Assembly: GCA_951406725.2 (NCBI GenBank)
Contig: OX597832.1
Coordinates: forward strand, 69,378,001-69,442,000
Length of the DNA: 64,000 bases
Direction: 5' to 3'
From: Octopus vulgaris
Lineage: Eukaryota
How positions within the stretch are numbered: the first letter of the stretch is position 1; each line of letters opens with the position of its first letter. The translations under genes and the position numbers were made by a program. Under the pieces are notes generated by a model. The model was not told the origin of the DNA. It did no database searches and was given only the letters and a program-made list of their open reading frames with translations. Below are positions 16,362 through 49,467 of this stretch, one piece after another.

Positions 16362-19300
16362 ATTATTATGGCTGCCCCCTCGTTATCGAGTATGGCCATT
16401 GCACGAAGCTTAACTGTTACTTGTGCTGTGATCGAATGTGACTTTTTAGCCCTGCTAAATACCTACAATGTCTTGTACAAAATTGGCAACTAAAACCTTT
16501 ACTGGTAATAGCTGGCTGTAGTTGTAAATGGGCTTCATGTACCTTTGCATGTCGTTTAAGTCCTCCTGCCGAATTACACTCTCTTCCACATGCCCGACAG
16601 ATATGATTAGTATGGTATGTTACACCATCACCAGTGGCCAGGTTGTCACTCATCTGTCTCGTTTTATGACTACGAAGATGACTCTTGAGTCCAGCTTTAC
16701 TGAGGCAGGGTCTTGCTCAGACATTGCATGCCAGCATCAAAGGAAGACCCTTCCCTTTTGGTAGTGTAACAGCGATGCCCTTCCTGACATCCCTCCTTAC
16801 TTTCTCATGTGCAACTCGAGATTTCTCAAACGTGGCTGTCCCATAATGCACAATCCTTCTCCACCTGCTACGATCAATAGCTATGCCTTCCCATGTGTCA
16901 GGAGATATGCAAGCATCTCTTAAGGAAGCCTTCAGCAAGTCCTTATACCTATTTTTTGGTTTATGTGGAGGTCGTTCTCCTTTAGCTAACTCTCCATAAA
17001 AGAGTTTTTTTGGCATCCTTGAATCCTTCATCCTAACCAAATGACCACTCCATCTGAGCCTTTGCTATAACACAAGAGCTTCTATACTTTCACACCGAGA
17101 GCCTTCCAATATTTCAAGATCCCTGATGTGGTCCTTCCACTTAATGCCATAGATCCGTCTGAGGCACATCTGATGGAAACGTTCCAGTTGTTTAAGGTGG
17201 TATCGATATGTGACCCACGTCTCGCAGGCATAGAGAAGAGAAGGGAGCACACATGCCTTGTACACCTTTATCTTTGTCTTTCTGCATATGTCTCGCCGAC
17301 TCCAGAGACGCTTTTCTACCCTTCCGAAAGCAACACTTGCTTTCCTAATTCTGTATTAGAATTTCATCATCCAAATTGCCATATCTATTAATAGTGCTTC
17401 CCAGGTAGACAAACTGATCAGCTACATCAAGTCGTTTACCACATACATAGATATTTGGTACACTATACTGCTTACCAGGGGCAGGTTGATGCATGACAAC
17501 AGTTTTCTTGAGATTGACTGTCAATCCTAAGGCAGTGCAAGCATCAGAGAATGCATTCAAAATGTGTTGCATATCAATCTCTGTGTGCGCTACTAGCTCA
17601 CAATCATCTGCATACAAAAGGTCTCTTATGATAGAGGTAAATACCTTTGTTTTTGCAGCAAGGCACCTGACATTAAATATGCTGCCAGAGGTTCGATAAA
17701 AACCTGATACAAATCCAGACCCTGTTCCACACACTTTTCCTGAAGCTGTCTAGCTGAAAAGATCATATCAGCAGTGCCACGTCCCACACGGAAGCCAGAT
17801 TGACTTTCTGGAAGAACACAATCTGCAACGTATTTCAGCAGACGATCCAGAAGTATCCTGCATAAAACCTTTCCTACAGCAGACAGCAATGATACTCCCC
17901 TATAATTACCACAATCATTCCTGTTGCCCTTTCCCTTATACAGGACCACCATTACTGCATCTCTACAGTCCTCAGGTACAGATTCACTAGTTCATATCTT
18001 ACCAAACAAAGAGTGAAGTTTCTGCAGAAGTTTCTCACCACCATGCTCTAACAACTCCGCATGTATGCCATCCATACCCGGAGACTTCCCATTATTCAAC
18101 CTTGAGACAGCCATTGCAACTTCTTCCAACTTTGGTGGTTCTGCGAGTGCTGCCTTCACAGGCAATCCAGGGATGAGATTGAGAACATCCTCACTAACTA
18201 CAGACTGCTGATTCAAAAGTTCATCAAAGTGTTCTTGCCACCTTCGCAGAATTCCTTGTGAATCACGAAGAAGTTCTTTACCATCCCTGCTTTGATGTGG
18301 TGTCATCAGGGAAGACATCGGTCCATAAACTTCTCGCAAGAGACCATACAACAGCTTTGTGTTATTGGAATCTGATGCTGCCTGTATCTCATCAGCCTTC
18401 TAACTCCACCACGTATCCCTCATATTGACGCTTTCTTCGTATCAATCCCAGAACTTTCTTGCCTATATCATAAACTGACTTTTTAAGGGTCGGCCAATCC
18501 TCCCCAATATCTGCAGCATTCATTTCCTCTCGTAAAGTTCTCTTCACACTAAGACGATCAACATTCAGTCTTTTAGGGGTAATCCCTGCAGCTCGGATTT
18601 TATGTTTTGTGACTAATTTCACTTTTGTGACTAATTTCACTAGGTGGTGGTCAGTCCAACACTCAGCTCCACGAAGAACACGAACACACTGCACATCCTG
18701 TCTGTCACGCACCCTAACTAGGATGTAATCCAGAATATGCCATTCTTTAGATGCAGGGTGCATCCATGTAGTCTTAAGCTTATTCTTTTGTTGAAACATG
18801 GTATTGGTAACACACAGACGCAGCTCCTCACACATCTGCAGCAAAAGCATGCCATTACTATTACACTTCCCCACCCCATGCTTTCCAATTACAGTCCATG
18901 TGTTAAAATCCCTACCCACTCTAGCATTAAAGTCACCCAGTACGATGACTTTGTCTGCCCGAGGGATATTTCTTATAATGCCCTTCAAAGCATGGTAGAA
19001 TGAAAGTTTTTCGTCATCAGTATAGCACATAGTTGGAGCATACACACTCACCAAGGTCATAAAATTTCCTTTAGCCAAAGGAATTCTCATGGACATAAGA
19101 CGCTCGTTAATTCCGACTGGGAATTCTTCCAACTTGTCCACAAGAGTAGTCTTAACAGCAAATGCCACTCCAGCTTCTCCTCTAAACTCTTCATTCCTCC
19201 CTTTCCAAAAGAATGTATATTTTTCACAAGATTCTGTAAGATGACCATCTCCAGGTAATCTCGTCTCAGATAAAGCAACGATGTCAAGATCATAGCGTTG

Positions 19301-20160
19301 AAGCTCCTTCGCAACAAGCGCAGTCCTTCTTTCAGGACATTCAGAGGACTTGCGGTCAAGCAGTGTCTGTACATTCCAACAGCCAATATTCAATATTTTC
19401 TTTGGTTCTATCACAGTAGCATGATGATGGCCGGGTTCAGACTGTGATGCTCTGGAGCCCCTGCCGGGCCAGACTCTTTCAGCTGATGTGGTTCCAGAGT
19501 CCTTACTGCCATTTATTTTTATACTGTTTTGGTACATCATTGATTTTTTGCTTTTTAAGGCTACAGCCAGCCATTCAGTTGAGACTCACAGTGCCATCAA
19601 CAATCATGGATTAGTTAATCAATTTAATCAATCAATCAATGTTGTTATCGTGCAATGCCTGTGCAAAAAGATTTTTTTTAAAGCGAGGAAAGGCTGTGCA
19701 CTGAGTCAATCCCACTCACTAAGCAACAGCAGCCATAATCCGAAAAGGAGAACAAGTCAACATCATCGGTAATCACTGAGCCGCAGGTTTTATGTCGGAG
19801 TTATCCCAGTTACCTGAGTTACCTTCTCCTAGAAGGATGCCCTAACAAAGGCTAGGAGTTCTTCACTCCCAATGGTTTAACCGCGCGATCGAGTATTCAG
19901 TCCGATTATTTCTATGTCCCTACACATGATACAGCCTTAAGCCTTAAGAAAAAAAAAATTGCACATTTATTGGATGGCCGTTGACTCTCAAGAGTTCCTC
20001 CGCCCTTTGACGGGTTTGTTTTTCATCCCGCAGAGTGACCAATAAACACCCTCCTCACCAAGCTAGCTTGGTGGGGTTGCCGGTTTAGTCGCCGACGACC
20101 CGACCGTGCAACAGGTTGTACTGGGTTACATGTTACCAGTAGCACTCGAAAGTGACCTGA
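16362..20160 (-). mobile_element. RTE-clade LINE, copy A: near full length, internally deleted and frameshifted
   Basis: APE ORF 18392-19540 (IGCWNV, ALSETR, VYAPT, LGDFNAR, LDY, TDH); RT pieces (GKSPGMDG, NYRGVSLL, QSGFR, LLYADD, FVYLGS); C-terminal C2H2-like fingers; 3' stem-loop CTCG-ataa-CGAG then (TAA)/(TATG)n; structured 5' leader. Confidence 0.93.
18392..19540 (-). pseudogene. RTE ORF N-terminal AP endonuclease segment
   Basis: ORF-track translation with APE motifs; frame lost after WPTLKK...RRKRQ. Confidence 0.85.
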
Positions 20161-20400
<240 letters not shown>

Positions 20401-37381: not shown

Positions 37382-37432
<51 letters not shown>

Positions 37433-37433
<1 letters not shown>

Positions 37434-37603
37434 GCGCAGGAGTGGCTGTGTGGTAAGTAGCTTGCTAACCAGCCACATGGTTCCGGGTTCAGTCCCACTG
37501 CGTGGCATCTTGAGCAAGTGCCCTCTGCTATAGCCCCGGACCGACCAATGCCTTGTGAGTGGATTTGGTAGACAGAAACTGAAAGAAGCCTGTCGTATAT
37601 ATG

Positions 37604-37634
<31 letters not shown>

Positions 37635-37850
37635 TTGTGTGTCTGTGTTTGTCCCCCTAGCATTACTTGACAACCGATGCTGGTGTGTTTACGTCCCCGT
37701 CACTTAGCGGTTCGGTAAAAAGAGACCGATAGAATAAGTACTGGGCTTACAAAGAATAAGTCCCGGGGTCGATTTGCTCGACTAAAGGCGGTGCTCCAGT
37801 ATGGCCGCAGTCAAATGACTGAAACAAGTAAAAGTAAAAGTAAAAGTAAA

Positions 37851-37891: not shown

Positions 37892-40800
37892 AACCCAGTA
37901 CAACCTGTTGCATGGTCGGGTCGTCGGCGTCTAAACCGGCAACCCCACCAAGCTTGCTTGGTGAGGAGGGTGTTTATTGGACACCCTGCAGGATGAAAAA
38001 CAAAACCCGTCAAAGGGCAGAGGACCTCTTGAGAGTCAACGGCCATCCAATAAATGTTAGCACGGGTACGCAGAAATTCCGGGCTGGTGTCCGGCGTGCT
38101 GAAAGACCACTGGGAGTGAGGCGCCCCCTCAGTTTTTGTTAAAGCATGTCTCTAGGAGAAGGTCACTCTGATATAAAACCAGATATGCAGGGAATGCCAC
38201 ATCCCTGAGCCTGCGACTCATATTGGCACCAGACATATTGCTTCCGGCTTGTCTCTGGATAATGTCAATAAAGTGGAGAGGGTCTATGAGGTGTTGTGCA
38301 AGCCTTATTGGACCTAAAACTCTGCACAGGCATTGCCGACCTCTGCTCGATACGCGCATATTTTTTTATTCTATAAATATTTATCTGATTTTTAGTATAT
38401 ATTTTTAATTTTTTATTCGGAAGTCTGCGGCGATGGGAAGGTGGCGAAGCATGCAGACCTGACGGGTTGGAAGCATGTAGTCAGCGACCTGCACGTAGGC
38501 GGCCCATGCTAGATATAAAGTCGTCTCCTTGTCGCCCAAGACAGCGGTAGGATTCGTTTGCTGCATGGGTGTCTGAGCACCTCCATTTGGAGGGCACTGT
38601 TCACCTGGAGACCTGGGAGGTTCTAGAAAAGGTCAACCAAAAATTGCCTTCTTTCCATATCTGGTCAGTTTAGTGCGACTGACGGATGTCCACCCTGCGC
38701 TCGAAAAACAAAGAATCTTTTATCTATAAAATCTGGACGGAACTTAAACATTTCATGTTGGAAGGTGCGCACTCTGTTGGACAACAAGAGGCCTAAAAGA
38801 CGCACTGCACTTGTTACTCGTGAGCTGAACCGTTATAAAATTGATATAGCTGCACTCTCAGAGACTCGTATAGAAGGTGATGGTCAGCTTGAGGAAGTAG
38901 GAGGTGGATACACCTTTTTTTGGAAAGGAAGGCAGAAGGAGGAGCGCAGAAAGGCTGGTGTTGGTTTTGCAGTCCGATCTGATATCCTTAAGAAGTTGGA
39001 AGAGCTCCCTGTTCCTATAAATGAACGTATAATGACCCTACGGTTGCACTTGAAAGGTAAGCAGTTTGCTACTCTAATAAGTGCCTATGCTTTGACTAGC
39101 TGTGATGAAGATAAAACAATCTTTTATACCCAGCTGAGAGCCATACTTAGAAAAATTCCCAATTCTGATAAAGTCATTCTACTGGGGGATTTTAATGCCA
39201 GAGTTGGAACAGACTGGCAAATATGGAACTCTCTAGGACGTTTTGGGGTAGGGAAAAGGAATAGCAATGGTCTCATGCTACTGGAGCTTTGCGAAGAGCA
39301 TGGACTTTACATTGCAAGCACTCATTTTGTGCACAAAGGTGATCACACAACAACAGGGATGCATCCAAGGTCCAAAGTTTGGTACTTGCTGGATTATGTC
39401 ATCATCCGCAAGCGTGACATTTATGACATTTGTAATGTCGAGTCCTTGCATAGATCAGAATGCTGGACAGACCACAGTCTGGTGCGAGCAAAGTTCCGAA
39501 TGATGATTAGGGCGAAAGAGAGAAGAGGACCAGTCAGCATTCCTCGCCGTCTAAATGTCCACAAGGCATATGATGTTGTGGTTAGGAAAGAGCTTCAGAC
39601 TCGCTTGTCCAGCATTGAAACTGCTGCAGCATGGGAAGATTTTCGAAACCAGGTTGTTCAATGTGCAGCCGAAACACTGGGGTATGTTACTGCCAGACAC
39701 AGAGACTGGTTTGATGAGAATGATGCTGAAATTCAGCGACTATTAGTGGTAAAGCGCCATGCCCACAGTGTGTTGCTGCACAGAGAACTGTCTACTGTGC
39801 AGCGAAGTCTAGCACTTGCCCACTATAACAGTATAAAATCACTACTGCAGCGATCTCTCAGGAAGATGCAGAACTCTTGGTGGGAGGATCTTGCTCGTGA
39901 TGTTCAGGCTGCTGCCGATGCAAATGACAGCAAGAAGCTTTACCATCTTATGAAGCGAGCTTATGGACCTAAGAGCTCCACATTAGCTCCTTTGCTTTCC
40001 AAGGAGTCTTCCACTCTGTTTACTAAATCAACAGAAATCACAGGTCGCTGGATCGAACACTTCTCTGAACTCCTAAACCATGAGTCAGTTGTGGATGAAA
40101 CAGTGATTGATACTATGAAACAAAGACCTACCATTGACTCCTTAGACTCCTCGCCCTCAATAGATGAAGTAATGACATCAATAAGTAAATTGAATCTTGG
40201 TAGGGCACCTGGAAAGGATGGAATTTGTGCTGAGGTCTTGCGATTTGGTGGTAATTGCATCACACAGTACCTTCATGAACGTATTAGTGCAGTCTGGAGG
40301 GATGGTGCAATCCCTAAGGACTGGAAGGATGCAATTATTCTTCCTCTATATAAAGGAAAAGGAGCCAGAACAATGTGTAGTAACTACAGAGGTATTGCTC
40401 TACTATCAGCTGTTGGCAAGGTTCTGGCAAATATTCTTCTTACCCGTCTGAATGGGTGTCTCGTAAATGATGTCCTATCTGGATCCCAATGTGGCTTCCG
40501 ATCTGGTAGAGGGACAATGGATATGATTTTCACAGCAAGACAGATGCAGGAAAAGTGCTATGAGCAGAATATGGATCTTGTCCAGGTATTCATTGATTTA
40601 ACTAGGGCCTTTCTATGGAAAATACTTGGCAAACTTGGATGTCCGGATCACTTTGTATCTATAATTAAATCATTTCATGATGGGATGGAGGCTTGGGTCA
40701 ACGTTGGTGGTGCCATGGCGGGACCCATTCCTGTAGAGAATGGTGTCGAGCAGGGTGACATCCTTGCCCCAACTCTCTTTTCTTTGTACTTTGCTGCTGC

Positions 40801-41953
40801 TTTTACTCATGCTTTTGCTAAGGTTAGCTCTCTGGGAATATATGTCAGATATCGATCTTCTGGCCACCTCTTTAATCTTCACCGATTTGCTGCCAATTCA
40901 AAGGTTTCCCAGTCTATTATTCGTGACCTCCTTTATGCAGATGACTGTGACTTAGTCACTCATACAGTAGTTGACATGTAAAAACTCATGAATTGCATTT
41001 CTGCTTCTTGCAGGGCATTTGGACTCAGCATTAGCCTGGATAAGACTGTTGTAATGTTCCAGCCTGCACCAGGAAATCCATATATAGAACCAGCTATCTT
41101 AATTGAAGGAACAATTCTGAAGGTAGTAGACAAGTTTGTCTACCTGGGCAGCACACTCAGCCGTTCTTGCTCCCTGGATGAGGAAATATCTTTCAGGTTG
41201 CAGAGAGCAACTAATTCCTTCCGGTCTCTTCAGTCTCGTGTCTGGTCCCAACATGGCATCGCAAGGAGAACAAAAGTTGCTGTGTACCGTGCTTGTGTAC
41301 TGACATCGCTTCTCTACTCATGTGAGACATGGACTCTGTACAAACGTCAGGTAAGGGTCCTTGAACTTTTTCATCAGAGATGTCTCAGACACATTCTCAA
41401 TGTTGGCTGGAATTCAAAAATTCCAGACACACAGATCCTGAGGACAGCTGATATCTTGAGTATTGAGACGATGGTGCACAAGCACCGGTTGCGTTGGACT
41501 GGACACCTTATTAGAATGAAGGATAGAAGGATTCCTAAGCAGATGCTCTATGGAGAACTTGTGAATGGAAGGAGACTCCGGCAGAAACCAAGGCTGCAAT
41601 TTAAGGACTGTGTCAAGCCCTCGTTAAAGGCCTGTGATATGCAGGACAATGACTGAGAGAACAATGCTTGTCATCGCCACAGATGGAGGAAGTAGGTTAA
41701 GGAGGAGATCGACACATTTGAGAGAGCACGTATCCAGCATGACGAACTTAAGCGAGCTACGCGAAAGCGCACGGCTCGTATAGTGAACGGGGAAAGCTTG
41801 GTCTGCAATGTTTGCAGTCGTGTATGCTTGTCAAGAGCAGGGCTCATTAGCCACCAGCTGAGCCGCAAATGCAAAATATAAGTTAGTCCTATAGCGCACA
41901 ATGTTCCTGAAGGTCGGCAATGGTCTTCCTCGGTCACGAGTGGACGGCCATCA
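37891..41953 (+). mobile_element. RTE-clade LINE, copy B, near full length
   Basis: 5' leader shared with copy A; CTAGGAGAAGG motif at ~38152; APE plus RT ORF 38765-41656 with one stop; C-terminal CNVC..H finger; 3' stem-loop CTCG-gtca-CGAG; flanked by (TA)n/(CA)n. Confidence 0.94.
38765..41656 (+). pseudogene. RTE ORF (APE plus RT) with a premature TAA at 40979-40981 and small deletions
   Basis: 738-aa and 222-aa ORFs in the same frame; ALSETR, LGDFNAR, GRAPGKDG, NYRGIALL, QCGFR, FIDL, QGDILAP, LLYADD, YLGS, RWTGH. Confidence 0.9.
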
Positions 41954-41988
41954 CACATATATATATATAATATATACACACACATATA

Positions 41989-48417: not shown

Positions 48418-49467
48418 GCAAAACACGAGCAAAACAAAAAAACTGTTCTCAGTATTTAAGGAAGCTGACAAATACAAACAAGAAATCATACCACCTAATA
48501 AATATGAAGAAGAAGAAGAAGAAGAAGATGAAGAAACAACAAAAGCTATAAAACAAATGAAATCCAAACTAAAAATAGAACAGCAATGAACCATGATAAA
48601 ACGATGGCAAGAAAAGCCCCTTCATGATAAATACAGGACTAAACTAAACGCAAAAGAAATAGACAAAGAAAAATCCCAGCAATGGTTGAGAAGCTCAGGA
48701 CTCAAAGCAGAACAGAGGGATTTTTAATTGCAGCACAAGACCAAAGCCTCCCCACCAGAAATTACCAAAAACATGTAATGAAAAGAAATATAACAAGTAA
48801 CTGCAGAATATGTGGAGATGGACAAGAAACAATAAATCATATTATCTCTGGCTGCCCAGTCCTGGCTAAGAAGGAATATATTTACAGACATGACAGAGTT
48901 GGAACCTACATACACTGGAAGCTACGCCAACATTATGGAATAACAACAGAAAAAAGATGGTATAGGCACACACCAGAAAAGGTCACAGAAAACGAGAAAG
49001 CCACCATACTCTGGGATATGCCGATACACACAGATAGAGAAATTAAGGCCAACAGACCAGACATAGTCGTCAGAGATCATGAAGAAAAAAATGCTTTCTA
49101 ATTGATGTATCAATACCGGCAGATGACAACGTGTCTCTAAAAGAAATGGAGAAACTTTCAAAATACAAAGACCTGGAAATAGAGGTAACCAGAATGTGGA
49201 ATCTAAAAACAGAAACAATTCCTATCATAGTAGGTGCATTAGGCATGATAAAAAAATATTCAGACAAATACATAACAAAAACACCAGGACTTACAAACAC
49301 ATATAACATACAAAAAATTGCACTACTAGGCACTGCACACATCCTACGCAGAACACTTTCCATACAATAACCATCAGAGCATCGCAACAAATCACAGCAC
49401 ATACGTAAGGCACACAGAGCTGCGCTCGGTAGTGAAGTGAAAGCACGCTATAAAAATAAAACTACTG
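48418..49467 (+). mobile_element. 5'-truncated R4/Dong-clade RLE LINE, relatively young
   Basis: EGFLIAAQDQSLPTRNYQ; CCHC finger CRICG..ETINHIISGC; RHDRV; ILWD; RPDIVV...LIDVSIP (PD-D/ExK nuclease); EKLSKYKDL; PIIVGALG; few lesions; ends in (AAT)n. Confidence 0.92.

What the first reader, a model, noticed from the sequence alone, without database searches (positions are those of the whole stretch)
19963..20160. Highly structured 5' leader ~95% identical between two divergent RTE subfamilies: candidate ribozyme or promoter module
Seen: 19963-20127 (minus) and 37892-38057 (plus) differ by 8 substitutions and 1 indel in ~166 nt, whereas the proteins are only 31/45 identical in a conserved APE block (manual counts). 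The leader can fold into stacked helices: a three-way junction CAGGT[CACT-ttcg-AGTG]c[TACTGG..CCAGTA]caACCTG (copy A only); GGGTcGTCGG-8nt-CCGGCaACCC; CACCAAGC-nn-GCTTGGTG; a GGGTG/CACYC stem whose loop TTTATTGG can pair with CCAATAAA ~65 nt downstream (pseudoknot); and a CTC-ttga-GAG hairpin. Several differences fall in loops or keep G-U pairs. Established: some RTE 5' ends carry HDV-like or twister ribozymes. I could not fit this one to the HDV, twister or hammerhead consensus. Inference: an unclassified self-cleaving or translation-promoting RNA, or a 5' module swapped between subfamilies.
Basis: partly seen in the sequence, partly recalled or inferred. Interest (0 to 1): 0.75.

Follow-up and report, generated by a model that had tools for sequence, protein, structure and literature searches.

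The report
Flavivirus-type RNA knot heads retrotransposon cassette
Several jumping-gene families in this animal genome start with the same swappable 200-letter RNA cassette, whose first part matches the knot that flaviviruses such as Zika use to stop the cell's RNA-destroying enzymes; the element likely lets those enzymes trim its RNA to the right start instead of cutting itself with a ribozyme.

Summary
In detail: 8 substitutions and 1 indel over 166 nt; proteins 47% identical. No known ribozyme matches. Nucleotides 20161-20105 (minus) carry the sequence-level hallmarks of a class 1a exoribonuclease-resistant RNA (xrRNA): three-way junction, U•A-U triple bases, junction C, two pseudoknots. 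Compensatory changes affect 12 of 20 pairs across 18 relatives. 1,483 exact heads occur in this genome. In 27 copies with a readable target-site duplication, 13 carry 3-4 copy-specific extra bases before the first G, 8 carry none and 1 more than 5; 3-4 is what the published Xrn1 halt site predicts. Best reading (0.68): read-through transcripts are trimmed by Xrn1/Xrn2 to the knot, the job ribozymes do in other RTEs. Behind it lies an unclassified double-pseudoknot module (20104-19966) with covarying pairs. The cassette moved between families: A and B differ at 2 of 197 majority positions. The scan noted the xrRNA before on other DNA of this genome (e1-8666864); its short listing does not mention the extra-base footprint, second module or swap. 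Nothing is bench-tested.

The parts
20105..20161 (-). Class 1a-type xrRNA: 5' GUCAGG; P1 20159-20155/20116-20112; P2 20154-20151/20146-20143; junction C20142; P3 20141-20136/20124-20119; triple U20160 with A20140-U20120; PK1 G20161-C20118 (and U20162-A20117); PK2 loop 20132-20126 with 20111-20105 (C20106 breaks one pair in this copy)
   Evidence: RF01415 alignment, 24 bits, E 0.071, below the 54.5 cut-off; covariation; features from PMC5760640
20162..20165 (-). Flank bases 5' of the first G; predicted Xrn halt site at 20164-20165 (5-6 nt before the base of P1)
   Evidence: PMC5760640 passage; extra-base counts in other copies; not readable in this copy because the flank is a (TATG)n repeat
20079..20104 (-). 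Module 2, compact H-type pseudoknot: S1 GUCG 20104-20101 / CGAC 20091-20088; S2 GUCGG 20096-20092 / CCGGC 20083-20079
   Evidence: L170 GACG/CGUC and L218 GCCGG/CCGGC are compensatory; the 4-nt linker varies freely. Only these two double changes, so weaker than the other helices
20053..20076 (-). Module 2, variable hairpin (CCCC-ACCAAGC / GCUUGGU-GAGG)
   Evidence: Sequence and length differ between families with pairing kept, read by eye
19966..20051 (-). Module 2, long-range pseudoknot domain: stem GGGUG 20051-20047 / CACUC 20037-20033; loop 20046-20039 pairs with CCAAUAAA 19973-19966; encloses an A-rich-loop hairpin (20031-20010) and a GGGCG/CGGCC arm with ACUC/GAGU tip (20005-19976)
   Evidence: Loop and partner change together in 10 families; own partner beats swapped partners, 1 of 20000 permutations; the A/B similarity ends 2 nt after it
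19586..19965 (-). Family-A-specific 5' UTR; short boxes shared with family B (CTAGGAGAAGGT 19832-19821, TGCACAGGCATTGC 19665-19652); many non-autonomous copies jump to the 3' tail at about 19634
18392..19585 (-). Family A RTE ORF, APE part; decayed RT region continues beyond 17300
37892..38057 (+). Same leader in window copy B, 5'-truncated inside the xrRNA P3 loop
38627..41656 (+). Family B RTE ORF (APE-RT), one internal stop at 40981; element ends near 41955

Best explanation
The leader is a portable 5' cassette of RTE retrotransposons that begins with an RNA matching the class 1a exoribonuclease-resistant fold of flaviviruses, which likely makes a host 5'-3' exonuclease trim a longer read-through transcript down to the element's start. 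Steps: (1) shown: the fold sits at the first base of at least six RTE-related families and its helices covary; (2) inferred: a copy is transcribed from a host promoter upstream; (3) inferred from the known property of this fold: after decapping or upstream cleavage, Xrn1 or Xrn2 degrades the flank and halts 3-4 nt before the first G; (4) shown: new insertions often carry 2-5 extra bases of varying sequence between the target-site duplication and that G, as such an RNA end would leave; (5) inferred: the downstream double-pseudoknot module supports use of the uncapped RNA (cap-independent translation or binding of the RTE protein); (6) shown by identities, mechanism inferred: the cassette was exchanged between families, probably by template switching.
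For: Fold: best Rfam hit is the flavivirus SL-IV/xrRNA model (24 bits), the same range as two matches in a real flavivirus 3' UTR (28.1 and 24.1 bits, L126). A degenerate pattern for the core finds 61 and 8 matches with forced changes in P2 or P3, reversed-pattern control 0; they are families with fully compensated P2 (CUCC/GGAG, CGCU/AGCG) or P3 and a new PK2. On 18 rows 94.7% of cells pair, 12 of 20 pairs change on both sides, 0 of 500 shuffles reach that, slid structures pair 27-48%. PK2: own partner 4.1 bp vs 3.1 swapped, 0 of 5000 (15 types). Family-level G-U/A-U exchanges fit the sense RNA. Position: 28 of 30 A, 20 of 30 B (query downstream) and 16 of 19 D1 copies start at the same G. 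Footprint: 27 of 53 copies with both ends have a target-site duplication (chance 16 of 628); extra bases 0:8, 1:1, 2:3, 3:8, 4:5, 5:1, 7:1; 16 different sequences among 19, first base G in only 2. Halt site is 5-6 nt before P1 (PMC5760640), two positions upstream of PK1 (PMC13161572). RTEs are known to rely on host promoters plus 5' processing (Perere-3 twister, PMC8501958). Swap: A vs B 2 of 197 majority differences, pairwise 95.6% against 95.9-96.8% within family, while the next 200 nt are at background (52-54%) and proteins 49-54%.
Against: No bench or read-level data: no nuclease assay, and only contigs were available, which cannot show RNA starts. The Rfam hit alone is not significant (E 0.071; the same model rang in 7 of 14 prokaryote control genomes at E<=10, found nothing in a genome-wide pass that scored 64 of 84,788 candidates, and missed L210, L218, L239); RF03547 did not hit the window. 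The invariant core positions in the 18-row alignment are fixed by my search pattern, and the metagenome rows were picked by eye. PK2 fails in 2 of 15 types (L162, L218). A crude PK2 comparison over all 130 pattern hits did not separate groups (37 of 53 vs 39 of 72). 8 of 27 copies have no extra bases; AT-rich flanks blur junctions; the control on 18 truncated copies gave no usable duplication, so untemplated additions are not excluded. An internal promoter starting 3-4 nt upstream would leave a similar gap.
Confidence: 0.68

Rival explanations
1. The xrRNA fold is real but only stabilises the RNA: an internal RNA polymerase II promoter in the leader starts transcription 3-4 nt upstream, and the knot rescues the RNA after decapping.
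For: Fixed 5' ends and short upstream extensions are also what a position-fixed start would give. Module 2 has well-conserved sequence stretches that could double as DNA motifs. LINE 5' ends commonly hold promoters (PMC5786205 section 23).
Against: The extra bases begin with a pyrimidine in 13 of 19 and with G in 2 of 19, whereas capped templates tend to leave an extra G and starts favour purines (recalled knowledge). The variable parts of the leader change as base pairs, i.e. under RNA-level selection. Family E keeps the xrRNA with a different second module.
Confidence: 0.2
2. The leader is a new self-cleaving ribozyme and the likeness to the xrRNA is incidental.
For: Other RTEs carry HDV-like or twister ribozymes at this place (PMC5786205; PMC8501958). 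Module 2 is a double-pseudoknot fold with no Rfam match.
Against: No ribozyme family at E<=10; no hammerhead core in a full B copy; HDV topology cannot be built because only one base lies between the pseudoknot strand and the closing helix (sequence). Cleavage inside module 2 would remove the xrRNA, yet copies start at the xrRNA and truncation points are scattered. For Perere-3 the duplication abuts the cleavage site; here 19 of 27 have a variable gap.
Confidence: 0.06
3. The structure serves the RTE protein during insertion (5' RNA binding or second-strand priming); nuclease resistance is a side effect, and the extra bases are untemplated additions.
For: Non-autonomous copies keep the whole leader (26 of 30 A hits). 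Full-length copies show target duplications (27 of 53) whereas 18 truncated family-C copies gave none at the same threshold.
Against: Does not explain why the register and tertiary bases are those of flavivirus xrRNAs, nor the cut-off of extra bases at about 5. The same leader works with proteins only 27-50% identical.
Confidence: 0.06

Closest known systems
Subclass 1a xrRNA of mosquito-borne flaviviruses (Rfam RF01415, RF03547; PMC5760640, PMC8078501, PMC8374639)
   Same: Same order and spacing of P1-P2-P3, 5' GUCAG, junction C, U with A-U pair, 5'-end/junction pairing, loop-3/downstream pseudoknot; my core pattern also hits three about 10.8-kb viral contigs near their 3' ends, two of them confirmed as flavivirus 3' UTRs by DB and CRE matches.
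   Different: Sits at the first base of a genomic retrotransposon, upstream of an ORF, not in a viral 3' UTR; U-A replaces C-G at two pairs of the Rfam consensus; followed by an unrelated double-pseudoknot module instead of flaviviral elements; below Rfam cut-offs; resistance untested.
5' self-cleaving ribozymes of non-LTR elements: twister variants of Perere-3 (RTE; PMC8501958), HDV-like ribozymes of R2, RTE and others (Ruminski 2011, seen only as cited in PMC5786205)
   Same: Same place and same proposed job: release an element RNA with a defined, protected 5' end from a host-promoter transcript; the flank supplies a base or strand of the first helix.
   Different: No catalytic core; the end would be made by a host exonuclease, giving a 5'-monophosphate and 3-4 carried-over flank bases instead of a 5'-OH at a fixed bond.
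Class 3 xrRNAs in intergenic regions of plant viruses (PMC12397905)
   Same: An xrRNA proposed to mature a protein-coding, uncapped RNA.
   Different: Different fold; viral, not genomic.
Bipartite non-autonomous RTE elements (Bov-A, RTESINE; PMC5786205)
   Same: Short copies made of the RTE 5' end plus 3' tail, as in families A (about 555 nt) and D1 (about 575 nt) here.
   Different: No xrRNA or shared structured cassette was found in the passages read.

Membership tests
Class 1a xrRNA | Three-way junction P1/P2/P3 | tested here: met
   P1 100%, P2 95.8%, P3 98.1% of cells paired; double changes in 2, 3 and 3 pairs
Class 1a xrRNA | U•A-U base triple bases (PMC5760640) | tested here: met
   U20160, A20140, U20120 present in register and in all 18 rows; invariance is forced by the search pattern, so presence, not conservation, is the result
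Class 1a xrRNA | Unpaired conserved C in the junction | tested here: met
   C20142; same caveat
Class 1a xrRNA | PK1: two 5'-end bases pair with two junction bases | tested here: met
   G20161-C20118 in 18 of 18 rows; the second pair needs U at -1, present in 28 of 28 A, 20 of 20 B, 23 of 30 C/D and 9 of 16 D1 copies
Class 1a xrRNA | PK2: loop 3 pairs with the strand after P1 | tested here: met
   13 of 15 types have 4 or more Watson-Crick pairs; own vs swapped partner 0 of 5000; not imposed by the pattern
Class 1a xrRNA | Non-canonical pair closing the ring | tested here: inconclusive
   An A near the end of loop 3 is nearly invariant, but the first base after P1 varies
Class 1a xrRNA | Rfam gathering score (RF01415 54.5; RF03547 37) | tested here: inconclusive
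   24 bits, below cut-off; matches in a real flavivirus 3' UTR also score only 28.1 and 24.1, so the cut-off does not define the class
Class 1a xrRNA | Blocks Xrn1 in vitro or in vivo, halting 5-6 nt before P1 | not testable with these tools
   Indirect only: 13 of 27 insertions carry 3-4 extra bases, 1 more than 5
HDV-like ribozyme | Nested double pseudoknot P1/P1.1/P2/P3/P4 starting at the cleavage-site G | tested here: not met
   No Rfam match; no room for P3/L3 after the pseudoknot strand
Twister ribozyme | P1-P2-P4 with T1/T2 pseudoknots; duplication abutting AA at the cleavage site | tested here: not met
   No Rfam match; candidate loop AAGC is part of a covarying hairpin; gap before G is variable
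Hammerhead ribozyme | CUGANGA...GAAA core | tested here: not met
   0 matches in L034; no Rfam match
Type IV (HCV-like) IRES, for module 2 | Core junction with IIId GGG loop, IIIe, IIIf pseudoknot (PMC13034579) | tested here: not met
   No Rfam match; no enclosing helix or conserved GGG loop seen in the alignment; IRES activity itself not testable
Independent tRNA/7SL/5S-headed SINE | Small-RNA-derived head; leader mobile on its own | tested here: not met
   No Rfam small-RNA match; short copies include further RTE 5' UTR and a tail; leader also heads ORF-bearing copies (24 of 28 B, 18 of 30 C/D)
RTE clade LINE | Single APE-RT ORF, short tandem-repeat tail, target-site duplication | tested here: met
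   Pfam APE and RT; tails and duplications; clade name rests on recalled motifs, no tree was built

The most novel reading that the evidence does not exclude
A widespread group of animal RTE retrotransposons has replaced both promoter and ribozyme by a flavivirus-type xrRNA plus a new IRES-like double-pseudoknot domain: host exonucleases mature the element RNA, the cassette is swapped between distant RTE lineages, and class 1a xrRNAs have moved between genomic retroelements and RNA viruses.
Probability: 0.4. Interest if true: 0.93.

Novelty: new variant of a known kind. Interest (0 to 1): 0.85.

Why it matters
A 2021 review states that xrRNAs had been characterised only in viruses and asks whether eukaryotic genomes hold them (PMC8374639, section 7 of the paper). 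Here is a candidate in more than a thousand genomic copies, at a position where its function is predictable and testable with a one-day assay. It would add a third way for LINEs to make their 5' end (exonuclease trimming, beside internal promoters and ribozymes), would give natural sequence variation for xrRNA structure work, and raises the question of where the flavivirus fold came from. The downstream module is a separate candidate for cap-independent translation. Searches for a printed report (listings only) returned none linking xrRNAs to retrotransposon 5' ends; subscription journals and Repbase were not covered.

Tried and rejected
Rfam at gathering score over the whole window: 0 matches. 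Genome-wide RF01415 search: 0, too few candidates scored to mean anything. MFE folding: weak and does not recover the model. PK2 comparison over all 130 pattern hits: not discriminating, because decayed copies of one large family fell in the 'rest' group. Control on truncated family-C copies: 12 of 30 ran beyond the locus, 18 truncated gave no duplication at threshold; by eye three short ones abut the junction and one has an 18-nt insert: inconclusive. Sequencing runs: no RNA holder listed; contigs only, no start sites. Module 2 pseudoknot pattern in viral contigs: 0. Bacterial promoter scan: irrelevant for this genome. HDV, twister, hammerhead and type IV IRES fits rejected (see membership). 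Pistol and hatchet were considered from recall only and had no Rfam hit. A polymerase III box in the P2 region was rejected because that sequence changes freely between families. Ruminski 2011 is not held. No supplements were read; supplements of the ribozyme and Repbase-based papers could list these leaders.

Full report
Setting. The window lies in a 2.80-Gb animal genome; earlier scan notes call it octopus, which I did not verify. It holds two decayed APE-RT elements, A (minus, from 20161) and B (plus, 37892-41955). Their leaders match at 157 of 166 positions, their APE regions at 47%.

What the first 57 bases are. Rfam gives nothing at gathering score. At relaxed threshold the best hit is RF01415, flavivirus 3' UTR stem-loop IV, on 20166-20095 (24 bits, E 0.071). 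That score is not significant by itself (the model rings in 7 of 14 control genomes at E<=10), but two matches in a real flavivirus 3' UTR score 28.1 and 24.1 (L126). The alignment puts the listed features of mosquito-borne flavivirus xrRNAs in register: three-way junction, U•A-U triple bases, junction C, pairing of 5'-end bases with junction bases, and a pseudoknot between loop 3 and the strand after P1 (features from PMC5760640, passages and one section read; PMC8078501, first fifth read).

Test by variation. I searched the genome with a core pattern that forces changes in P2 or P3. It returned 61 and 8 matches, 0 for the reversed pattern. These are other families with compensated P2 (C: CUCC/GGAG; D: CGCU/AGCG) or compensated P3 and a different pseudoknot (E). 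Of the 130 loci, 3 have an RTE-like ORF downstream (L132, L174, L197), 67 belong to one repeat family, and many GC-rich hits are chance. On 18 hand-picked rows, one or two per type, 94.7% of cells pair and 12 of 20 pairs show double changes; no shuffle of 500 reaches this, and slid structures pair 27-48%. The core positions are invariant by construction; P2, distal P3 and PK2 were not constrained. PK2 pairs better with its own partner than with swapped ones (4.1 vs 3.1 bp, 0 of 5000, 15 types; two types fail). Related rows inflate such counts. An exact 33-place head pattern occurs 1,483 times in the genome, control 0.

Position and footprint. 28 of 30 family-A hits (query included the 5' end, so biased), 20 of 30 family-B hits (query downstream) and 16 of 19 D1 hits begin at the same G. 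I fetched 60 more regions and looked for target-site duplications in families C and D1: 53 copies had both ends, 27 a duplication (chance 16 of 628 mismatched flank pairs). Bases between duplication and G: none in 8, one in 1, two in 3, three in 8, four in 5, five in 1, seven in 1. The 19 extras are 16 different sequences, 2 start with G. The published halt site is 5-6 nt before the base of P1, or two positions upstream of PK1 (PMC13161572, passages); P1 starts at the third base, so a trimmed RNA would keep 3-4 bases of the donor's flank. The match is suggestive, not decisive: the truncated-copy control failed, and a position-fixed start site or untemplated additions could give a similar gap. 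For the twister-bearing RTE Perere-3 the duplication abuts the cleavage site (PMC8501958, passages).

Module 2 (20104-19966). It follows the xrRNA in families A, B, C, D1, D2, F and in nine metagenome loci of five types. It holds a compact H-type pseudoknot (two compensated cases, L170 and L218), a variable hairpin, and a GGGUG/CACCC stem whose loop pairs with the 3' end across two further hairpins. Loop and partner change together: UUUAUUGG/CCAAUAAA, UUUGG/CCAAA, UUGUUGG/CCAGCAA, UGUUGG/CCAACA, GCUGG/CCAGC, UGUGG/CCACA, GCAUGU/ACAUGC, UCUGA/UCAGA; own partner 5.8 bp vs 4.4 swapped, 1 of 20000 (10 types). No Rfam family matches and its first pseudoknot is absent from the viral contigs. It is not a cleavage site, since copies do not start in it. 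An RNA trimmed by an exonuclease has no cap, so a role in translation is the natural guess; binding of the RTE protein is the alternative. Neither is shown. Family E and L176/L197 have the xrRNA with another module, so the two parts are separable.

Swap. Majority bases of A (20 copies) and B (19) differ at 2 of 197 positions; A-B pairwise identity (95.6%) equals that within families, while C and D1 are 80-82% from A (C rows include copies fetched twice). The next 200 nt are at background and the proteins 49-54% identical; L132 keeps 72% leader identity with 27-30% protein identity. Loops that vary between other families are identical in A and B, so recent exchange is more likely than conservation. 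The A/B junction lies 2 nt after the last pseudoknot strand. C and E share a downstream UTR under different second modules.

Short copies. 26 of 30 top A hits and the D1 copies are 510-660-nt elements with leader, more 5' UTR and a tail, without ORF (junction also seen in contigs): bipartite non-autonomous RTEs, a known kind (PMC5786205, passages and one section), not an independent SINE.

Novelty. A 2021 review says xrRNAs had been characterised only in viruses (PMC8374639, passages and one section); a 2025 paper still lists viral genomes only in the passages read (PMC12397905). Five searches (listings) showed no report of an xrRNA at a retrotransposon 5' end; a 2026 octopus repeat annotation has no occurrence of 'xrRNA' or 'ribozyme' (PMC13282606).

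Verdict. Real feature; class 1a xrRNA fold about 0.9; trimming of read-through RNA as the way the 5' end is made 0.68; function of module 2 open. New variant of a known kind; interest 0.85.

Noticed in passing
L143, L222, L122, L123: Contigs of 3.7-4.8 kb, two from the viral collection, carry the same xrRNA pattern with U-A at the base of P3; L143 has two in tandem. They are too short for flavivirus genomes and were not identified.
   Followed up: partly
L128-L247 (67 loci, e.g. L152:890-952): A large repeat family in host DNA of metagenome assemblies starts with the xrRNA with a long P2 and AGCUG/CAGCU pseudoknot, followed by its own conserved leader; no ORF hit in the flanks held.
   Followed up: partly
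L091, L095-L097 (family E), L176, L197: xrRNA followed by a different shared module, ending in a UTR also used by family C; L197 and L091 lead into RTE-like ORFs.
   Followed up: partly
L154, L188, L221, L243: xrRNA type with UGGU/ACCA pseudoknot, not at an obvious element start (shared sequence upstream) and no RTE ORF found.
   Followed up: no
L309-L338 versus L249-L288: Truncated family-C copies gave no target-site duplication (0 of 18) while copies with the leader often did (27 of 53); may hint that the leader affects how insertion is finished, or reflect older, decayed copies.
   Followed up: partly
window 20106-20107, runs X3, X11, X18: Contig loose ends show the xrRNA joined to other downstream sequences, pointing to further families.
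   Followed up: no
window 19832-19821, 19665-19652 and 38164-38336: Short boxes shared by the otherwise unrelated A and B 5' UTRs, also seen in D2 and L197; kept in non-autonomous copies.
   Followed up: no
window 37432-37850: A SINE-like repeat (recalled as a common octopus tRNA-derived SINE) lies directly upstream of truncated copy B.
   Followed up: no
window 48643-49101 (+): 152-aa frame with a CCHC motif and an RPDI motif, recalled as the C-terminal restriction-like endonuclease region of R2-group non-LTR elements.
   Followed up: no
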